From Escherichia coli (GTDB lineage Bacteria > Pseudomonadota > Gammaproteobacteria > Enterobacterales > Enterobacteriaceae): a stretch of 64,000 nt of DNA. The stretch is from assembly GCF_050920415.1 (NCBI RefSeq), contig NZ_CP169309.1; one strand, written 5' to 3'. Each line of letters opens with the position of its first letter. Position 1 is the first letter of the stretch. The translations under genes and the position numbers were made by a program. Below the pieces are notes generated by a model. That model was not told the origin of the DNA, did no database searches, and saw only the letters and a program-made list of their open reading frames with translations. Below, piece after piece: positions 57,317-60,218 of this stretch.

Positions 57317-60218
<2,902 letters not shown>

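What the first reader, a model, noticed from the sequence alone, without database searches (positions are those of the whole stretch)
59531..59539. rrlB lacks the G of a GATC and a C in ctcgggg relative to rrlE
rrlB reads ggctaatcacc where rrlE (18085-18096) reads ggctaGatcacc, again losing the G of a Dam GATC. rrlB also reads catctggggcaag at 57441-57453 where rrlE (15996-16009) reads catctCggggcaag. Each copy carries private single-base deletions in conserved 23S positions while every protein-coding gene in the window is intact, which fits errors confined to repeats where short-read polishing cannot place reads uniquely.
Basis: partly seen in the sequence, partly recalled or inferred. Interest (0 to 1): 0.35.

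Follow-up and report, generated by a model that had tools for sequence, protein, structure and literature searches.

The report
Assembly errors in ribosomal RNA repeats
The two missing bases in this E. coli 23S rRNA gene copy are really in the sequence, but they are almost certainly leftover sequencing and assembly errors in a repeated region (one at a methylated GATC site), not biology.

Summary
Window rrlB (57317-60218, minus strand) lacks the G of GATC between 59533 and 59534 (23S C687, K-12 numbering). It also lacks a C between 57445 and 57446 (23S G2775). rrlE has both bases.

These are part of a larger set. The two rrn operons carry 7 single-base deletions and 5 isolated substitutions private to one copy. 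All 43 protein-coding genes are intact. The nearest public genome (E. coli MFDS1022581) differs by 2 SNPs in 53.5 kb of unique DNA but by 31 positions in 10.5 kb of rrn DNA.

Three of the 7 deletions fall in Dam or Dcm motifs, which cover 2.3% of the operon (P = 4e-4). The same few sites are damaged in different operons of the two sister assemblies. The 23S GATC site is a hot spot across unrelated public genomes: G deletion in 1 record, G-to-A in 10, an inserted A in about 9.

One caveat: the G2775 deletion is shared, in the same operon, with the sister assembly. It could be a real lineage variant (about 15%). Interest is low.

The parts
57317..60218 (-). rrlB, a 23S rRNA gene of 2902 nt. Clean close relatives have 2905 (R32_14_1F) or 2904 (2017-02-2CC).
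   Evidence: Rfam RF02541, 2844 bits. Lengths. murB and murI flank it.
59533..59534 (-). Missing G on the + strand between these two bases (GGCTA|ATCACC). This is 23S C687, the C of the Dam site GAUC684-687 and the outermost paired base of a 12-bp helix.
   Evidence: Structure context. An exact match occurs in only 1 of 5433 RefSeq records.
57445..57446 (-). Missing C on the + strand between these two bases (CATCT|GGGG). This is 23S G2775, the first unpaired base of a 6-nt internal-loop strand.
   Evidence: Shared only with rrlB of the sister record CP169399.1. Absent from its rrlE, rrlA and rrlC.
58619..58626 (-).
60618..60619 (-). Missing base in the rrnB 16S-tRNA-Glu spacer.
15872..18774 (-). 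rrlE, a 23S rRNA gene of 2903 nt. It has its own private deletions at 18739|18740 (23S G35 in the Dcm site CCTGG) and 17633|17634 (A1142 in an AAA run). It also has the substitutions 17182 (A1596G) and 17231 (C1547T).
19216..20756 (-). rrsE, a 16S rRNA gene. It has a private deletion at 20049|20050 (16S C708 of the Dam site GAUC705-708) and the substitution 20083 (G674C).
60659..62200 (-). rrsB, a 16S rRNA gene of full length 1542 nt with no private indel.

Best explanation
The missing bases are consensus errors of a long-read assembly that survived polishing because they lie in the seven-copy rrn repeat. The long reads were most likely Oxford Nanopore.

Inferred mechanism:
1. Native DNA carries 6mA at GATC (Dam), 5mC at CCWGG (Dcm) and possibly strain-specific marks.
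2. The basecaller mis-reads the base next to the modified one. It calls a G-to-A or C-to-T transition, a deletion or an insertion, and it also miscounts short homopolymers.
3. Where the wrong call wins in the reads covering one operon, it enters the consensus for that copy only.
4. Short reads then correct the unique genome. They map ambiguously inside 5-kb repeats, so the polisher leaves those errors in place.

Shown here: the confinement to repeats, the motif enrichment, the scatter of the same sites across operons, and the recurrence in unrelated assemblies. Inferred: the platform, the polishing method and the methylation state.
For: 1. Confinement to repeats. There are 7 single-base deletions in 10,501 b of rrn and none in 46,707 b of CDS (Fisher P = 7e-6). 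All 43 CDS are intact.

2. Comparison with the sister genome NZ_CP169399.1. It differs by 2 SNPs and no indels in 53.5 kb of unique DNA. It differs at 31 positions, including 11 indels, in rrn DNA, which should be the most conserved DNA in the genome.

3. Motif enrichment. Three of the 7 deletions lie inside GATC or CCWGG, which occupy 2.3% of the operon (binomial P = 4e-4). One more is in an AAA run. Motif sites carrying a deletion are 3/52 in rrn against 0/397 in CDS (P = 0.0015).

4. Same sites, different copies.
- 23S G35: deleted in window rrlE and in sister rrlB and rrlA.
- 23S C687: deleted in window rrlB, C-to-T in sister rrlB, rrlA and rrlC.
- 23S A1142: deleted in window rrlE and sister rrlA.
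- 16S C708: deleted in window rrsE and sister rrsA.

5. Recurrence at the 23S GATC in unrelated strains.
- The identical deletion occurs in rrlE of CUVET16-819, where it is that operon's only private rRNA indel.
- G-to-A occurs in 10 records.
- GATC-to-GAATC is confirmed in 3 records and suggested in 9 by alignment length.
- By contrast, 120 of 120 sampled metagenome contigs have the wild-type G.

6. Literature.
- Modification-induced nanopore errors include reduced accuracy at the G and C of GATC (PMC11610603).
- Methylation-induced R/Y ambiguity has the minimal motif RA/TY and produces erroneous assemblies (PMC11610573). The G-to-A before the A of GATC fits this motif.
- Short-read polishers fail in repeats, and errors often remain there (Polypolish abstract, PMC8812927).
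Against: No reads, quality values or assembly-method record were available, so the platform and pipeline are inferred.

Four of the 7 deletions, including G2775, are not in a Dam or Dcm motif.

The G2775 deletion occurs in the same operon (rrlB) of both sister assemblies. It is absent from the four other copies examined: rrlE of both assemblies, and rrlA and rrlC of the sister. That pattern is what a real inherited variant would give. It also lies only about 350 bp from unique flanking DNA, where paired short reads could often be placed.

The exact G deletion at the GATC is rare in public genomes (1 of 5433 records), so it is not a universal error of any platform.
Confidence: 0.9

Rival explanations
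1. The deletions are real mutations of individual rrn operons. This would be natural rRNA operon heterogeneity, with rrlB a slightly defective or variant 23S gene tolerated because six other copies exist.
For: G2775 lies in an unpaired internal-loop strand. Its deletion is shared by rrlB of the window and of the sister strain MFDS1022581. It is not in the other four copies examined, as expected for inheritance by descent. E. coli is known to tolerate some sequence variation among its rrn operons. The clustered, covarying differences seen here at 23S 541-552, 1723-1735 and 2203-2215 and at 16S 1002-1038 are of that natural kind.
Against: It would require at least 7 independent deletions and 5 substitutions in 10.5 kb of the most conserved DNA, in a lineage that accumulated 2 SNPs in 53.5 kb.

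The changes are not compensatory. C687 is a conserved paired base.

The same sites are affected in different operons of the sister strain, and C687 is a deletion in one assembly and a transition in the other.

The C687 deletion is absent from all other RefSeq records except one unrelated strain, where it sits in a different operon. Neither deletion occurs in 100,044 species-representative genomes. The G2775 deletion is absent from JGI metagenome contigs.
Confidence: 0.03
2. A mixed case. The GATC deletion and the other anomalies are artefacts, but the G2775 deletion at 57445|57446 is a genuine rrlB variant of this sub-lineage.
For: It is the only anomaly reproduced in the same operon in both sister assemblies. 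It is not in a Dam or Dcm motif or a homopolymer on the deleted base. It is in a loop rather than a helix. It lies about 350 bp from the unique murB-side flank, where short-read polishing has a chance of working.
Against: Other error-prone sites also recur between the two assemblies. If there is one hit in each assembly, the chance that the sister's hit falls in the same operon is about 1 in 7, which is not small.

The site lies in CATCTC/GAGATG. That sequence is a documented 6mA motif in another species (Acinetobacter pittii, PMC11610603), so a strain-specific methylase could give a lineage-specific systematic error. This was not tested.

The next relative, N96, and all other 5,431 records lack the deletion.
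Confidence: 0.15
3. The anomalies come from mis-phasing or collapse of the seven operons during assembly, giving a chimeric consensus of different rrn alleles, rather than from base-level read errors.
For: rrsB carries different natural 16S alleles (positions 79-93 and 1002-1038) in the window and in the sister assembly. The 23S 1211/1220/1229 variants are also distributed differently. This could reflect allele mixing.
Against: Mixing true alleles cannot create single-base deletions that no clean E. coli rrl copy carries. The motif enrichment is also unexplained by phasing errors.
Confidence: 0.05

Closest known systems
Methylation-induced basecalling and consensus errors in Oxford Nanopore bacterial assemblies (Dam GATC, Dcm CCWGG, strain-specific motifs)
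   Same: The errors sit on the base next to the modified base of GATC or CCWGG. Transitions are of the RA/TY type (G-to-A before the A of GATC in the sister assembly). Outcomes vary between identical copies. The same site recurs across unrelated assemblies (PMC11610573, PMC11610603).
   Different: The window shows deletions rather than the R/Y substitutions emphasised for R10.4.1 chemistry. Four of the 7 deletions are outside Dam and Dcm motifs. The platform is not documented for this sequence.
Residual long-read errors in repeats after short-read polishing (the problem Polypolish was written for)
   Same: Unique DNA is clean, including 397 Dam/Dcm sites in CDS. The 5-kb, seven-copy rrn repeat keeps indels (PMC8812927 abstract).
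   Different: tufB is identical to the sister record and full length. Its paralogue tufA lies outside the window (my own knowledge, not tested), so this shorter repeat appears not to be affected. The polishing tool used is unknown.
Natural intragenomic rRNA operon heterogeneity in E. coli
   Same: The copies of one genome differ. Some differences here are of the natural, clustered and covarying kind in variable helices.
   Different: The flagged changes are isolated single-base deletions at positions invariant in about 37,900 E. coli copies. They lack compensating changes and are not inherited with the operon, with G2775 as a possible exception.

Membership tests
Methylation-associated long-read consensus error | The error lies within or next to a methylated motif. 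| tested here: met
   Met for the GATC deletion at 59533|59534, and for 16S C708 (GATC) and 23S G35 (CCTGG). That is 3 of 7 deletions in 2.3% of the bases, P = 4e-4. Not met for G2775 with respect to Dam or Dcm. Methylation itself is inferred from E. coli Dam/Dcm biology.
Methylation-associated long-read consensus error | The same site is mis-called recurrently in independent assemblies, with variable outcomes. | tested here: met
   At 23S GATC684-687 the outcomes are a deletion (window, CUVET16-819), G-to-A (10 records) and an inserted A (3 confirmed, 9 by alignment length). For G2775, recurrence is limited to the sister assembly.
Methylation-associated long-read consensus error | Strand-specific disagreement among reads at the site, which disappears in amplified DNA. 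| not testable with these tools
   No reads or signal data are available.
Residual errors in repeats after short-read polishing | Errors are confined to multi-copy sequence while unique sequence is clean. | tested here: met
   There are 7 deletions in 10.5 kb of rrn and none in 46.7 kb of CDS. There are no indel differences from the sister genome outside rrn.
Residual errors in repeats after short-read polishing | A hybrid long-read plus short-read assembly history. | not testable with these tools
   The window's source record was not found in RefSeq complete genomes (best 99.6% over rrnB). No paper mentions the sister strain.
Natural rRNA operon heterogeneity | Variants are compensatory or lie in variable helices. 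| tested here: not met
   C687 is a conserved paired base and its loss breaks a pair (NC flag). G2775 is an isolated loop deletion. Neither has a compensating change.
Natural rRNA operon heterogeneity | The variant is inherited with the operon in related strains. | tested here: inconclusive
   Not met for C687, where sister rrlB has T and the same deletion is in rrlE of an unrelated strain. Met for G2775, but only in the one sister assembly.

The most novel reading that the evidence does not exclude
The C deletion at 57445|57446 (23S G2775) is a genuine, inherited single-nucleotide deletion in the rrlB copy of this rare E. coli sub-lineage. It is shared with strain MFDS1022581. It would be a natural 23S variant in a domain VI internal loop, carried by one of seven operons.
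Probability: 0.15. Interest if true: 0.2.

Novelty: not a real feature. Interest (0 to 1): 0.08.

Why it matters
The biological significance is negligible. The practical point is data quality. rRNA genes taken from this assembly, and from its RefSeq sister, carry false indels. These would distort 16S/23S typing, rRNA variant catalogues and any search for rRNA heterogeneity. The 23S Dam site GAUC684-687 is damaged in about 20 of 5,433 'complete' E. coli records, so it could serve as a quick marker of unpolished rrn operons.

Tried and rejected
1. I tried to identify the source genome. The best RefSeq complete record over rrnB is only 99.6% identical. The window is therefore a sister of MFDS1022581 and is not in that collection.

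2. I looked up the window's RpoC protein to trace the record. The allele proved to be the common E. coli one, listed in 1,715 blocks of the collection, so it identifies nothing.

3. A literature search for the sister strain name found no paper.

4. Exact-pattern scans gave 0 hits for both deletions in 100,044 species-representative genomes. The G2775 deletion also gave 0 hits in metagenome contigs.

5. I considered a strain-specific methylase motif (CATCTC/GAGATG) as the cause of the G2775 deletion. This could not be tested.

6. I considered a PacBio origin. Homopolymer indels fit, but the Dam/Dcm association does not. This was not resolved.

7. Only four of the sister genome's seven operons (E, B, A, C) were retrieved. 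D, G and H were not located.

Full report
**Observation.** The window is E. coli chromosome. It carries two rrn operons on the minus strand:
- rrnE: 5S 15661-15776, 23S 15872-18774, tRNA-Glu 18972-19044, 16S 19216-20756.
- rrnB: 5S 57106-57221, 23S 57317-60218, tRNA-Glu 60416-60488, 16S 60659-62200.

The operon names follow from the flanking genes yjaA/purH and murB/murI. The quoted strings are at the quoted coordinates. rrlB reads ggcta|atcacc where rrlE reads ggctaGatcacc. rrlB reads catct|ggggcaag where rrlE reads catctCggggcaag. In rRNA sense and K-12 numbering these are deletions of 23S C687 (the C of GAUC684-687) and 23S G2775.

The Rfam alignment gives the structural context. C687 is the conserved outermost paired base of a 12-bp helix, and its loss is flagged as a broken pair. 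G2775 is the first base of an unpaired 6-nt internal-loop strand.

**The full set of anomalies.** Alignment of the two operons with each other, with K-12 rrnB and with clean rrnB copies of two relatives shows the following.

rrnB has 4 private deletions and 1 private substitution:
- 23S C687, U1602 and G2775, and one spacer base at 60618|60619.
- 23S C1595T.

rrnE has 3 private deletions and 4 private substitutions:
- 16S C708 in a second GATC, 23S G35 in CCTGG, and 23S A1142 in an AAA run.
- Four isolated substitutions.

The other differences between the copies are clustered and covarying. They are shared with other strains, so they are ordinary rRNA alleles.

**Unique DNA is clean.** All 43 annotated protein-coding genes are full length. 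Of these, 41 are DNA-identical to the nearest public genome, NZ_CP169399.1 (strain MFDS1022581). aceK has a synonymous change. rpoC differs at codon 553, where the window has the common E. coli allele.

Window and sister differ by 2 substitutions and no indels in 53.5 kb of unique DNA. They differ at 31 positions, including 11 indels, in 10.5 kb of rrn DNA. From the unique-DNA rate, 0.39 differences are expected in rrn. Counted conservatively as at least 19 separate events, this gives Poisson P = 1e-25. Deletions per base in rrn against CDS give Fisher P = 7e-6.

**Error signature.**
- Dam and Dcm motifs cover 2.3% of the operon but hold 3 of the 7 deletions (P = 4e-4).
- None of the 397 such sites inside CDS is damaged, against 3 of 52 in rrn (P = 0.0015).
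- The same handful of sites is hit in different operons of the two sister assemblies:
  - 23S G35: window rrlE, sister rrlB and rrlA.
  - 23S C687: deleted in window rrlB, C-to-T in sister rrlB, rrlA and rrlC.
  - 23S A1142: window rrlE, sister rrlA.
  - 16S C708: window rrsE, sister rrsA.
  - 16S A1150: sister rrsB and rrsA.
- Inherited mutations would stay with their operon. Systematic, stochastic consensus errors scatter like this.

**Recurrence in unrelated genomes.** I searched 5,433 RefSeq records, holding about 37,900 23S copies.
- The exact GATC deletion occurs once more, in rrlE of the unrelated strain CUVET16-819. It is the only private rRNA indel of that operon.
- The G-to-A variant of the same base occurs in 10 unrelated records, CUVET16-819 among them in another copy.
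- An A insertion in the same GATC (GGCTAGAATCACC) was confirmed in three records and is indicated in nine by alignment length.
- All 120 sampled metagenome contigs carry the wild-type G.
- No species-representative genome carries either deletion.

This one Dam site therefore acts as a hot spot for three different assembly discrepancies. That is hard to reconcile with biology and easy to reconcile with signal ambiguity around 6mA.

**Literature.**
- Bacterial DNA modification induces nanopore read errors, with reduced accuracy at the G and C of GATC (PMC11610603).
- Methylation-induced purine/pyrimidine ambiguity, with the minimal motif RA/TY, leads to erroneous assemblies (PMC11610573). The G-to-A before the A of GATC fits this.
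- Short-read polishers rely on alignments that are unreliable in repeats, so errors there often remain (Polypolish abstract, PMC8812927).

**Caveat.** The G2775 deletion is the only anomaly found in the same operon of both sister assemblies. It is absent from the four other copies examined and from every other RefSeq record. It is not in a Dam or Dcm motif. It does lie in CATCTC/GAGATG, a 6mA motif documented in Acinetobacter pittii, but whether this lineage methylates that motif is untested. I put the probability of a real lineage-specific rrlB variant at about 15%.

**Verdict.** This is not a biological feature. Its only value is as a quality warning for rRNA sequences taken from this and similar assemblies.

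Noticed in passing
window 59529-59539, and the equivalent site in public records (L002 24534; L135-L137): The 23S Dam site GAUC684-687 is a recurrent discrepancy hot spot in RefSeq 'complete' E. coli genomes. G deletion occurs in 1 record besides the window, G-to-A in 10 records, and an inserted A (GAATC) in about 9 records. It could serve as a quick check for unpolished rrn operons.
   Followed up: partly
window 60659-62200 (rrsB) against L002 25661-27200: The window's rrsB carries the common 16S allele at positions 79-93 and 1002-1038. The near-identical sister strain carries the alternative natural allele in the same operon. The cause is either recent gene conversion or mis-phasing of operons in one of the assemblies.
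   Followed up: no
window 21000-45000: This lineage is only 96.8-96.9% identical to nearly all 5,426 RefSeq complete E. coli genomes over 24 kb. Only MFDS1022581 (100.0%) and N96 from a Tibetan pig (99.6%) are close. This suggests a rare, deep-branching lineage. Its phylogroup or clade was not determined.
   Followed up: no
window 42019 (rpoC) and 9943 (aceK): These are the only two differences from the sister genome outside rrn. rpoC codon 553 is Thr in the window (the widespread allele) and Ala in MFDS1022581. The aceK change is synonymous.
   Followed up: partly
window 58619-58626 and 17176-17183: Three private anomalies cluster within 8 nt of 23S 1595-1602: C1595T and the U1602 deletion in rrlB, and A1596G in rrlE. 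There is no Dam or Dcm motif here. The transitions fit the RA/TY error pattern, so this may be another modification-sensitive context.
   Followed up: no
L013 48565-49544 and 24955-25121 (sister genome, outside the window): In MFDS1022581 an IS621 transposase is annotated as frameshifted. A small hypothetical gene is annotated with a frameshift and an internal stop. The IS copy is another repeat that may carry an uncorrected error.
   Followed up: no
window 10300-10377, 38538-38698, 48034-48095, 32745-32845, 18782-18890, 60226-60334: Ordinary Rfam matches above gathering score: naRNA4, sroH, P26, the TPP riboswitch upstream of thiC, and StyR-44 just upstream of the 5' end of each 23S gene.
   Followed up: no
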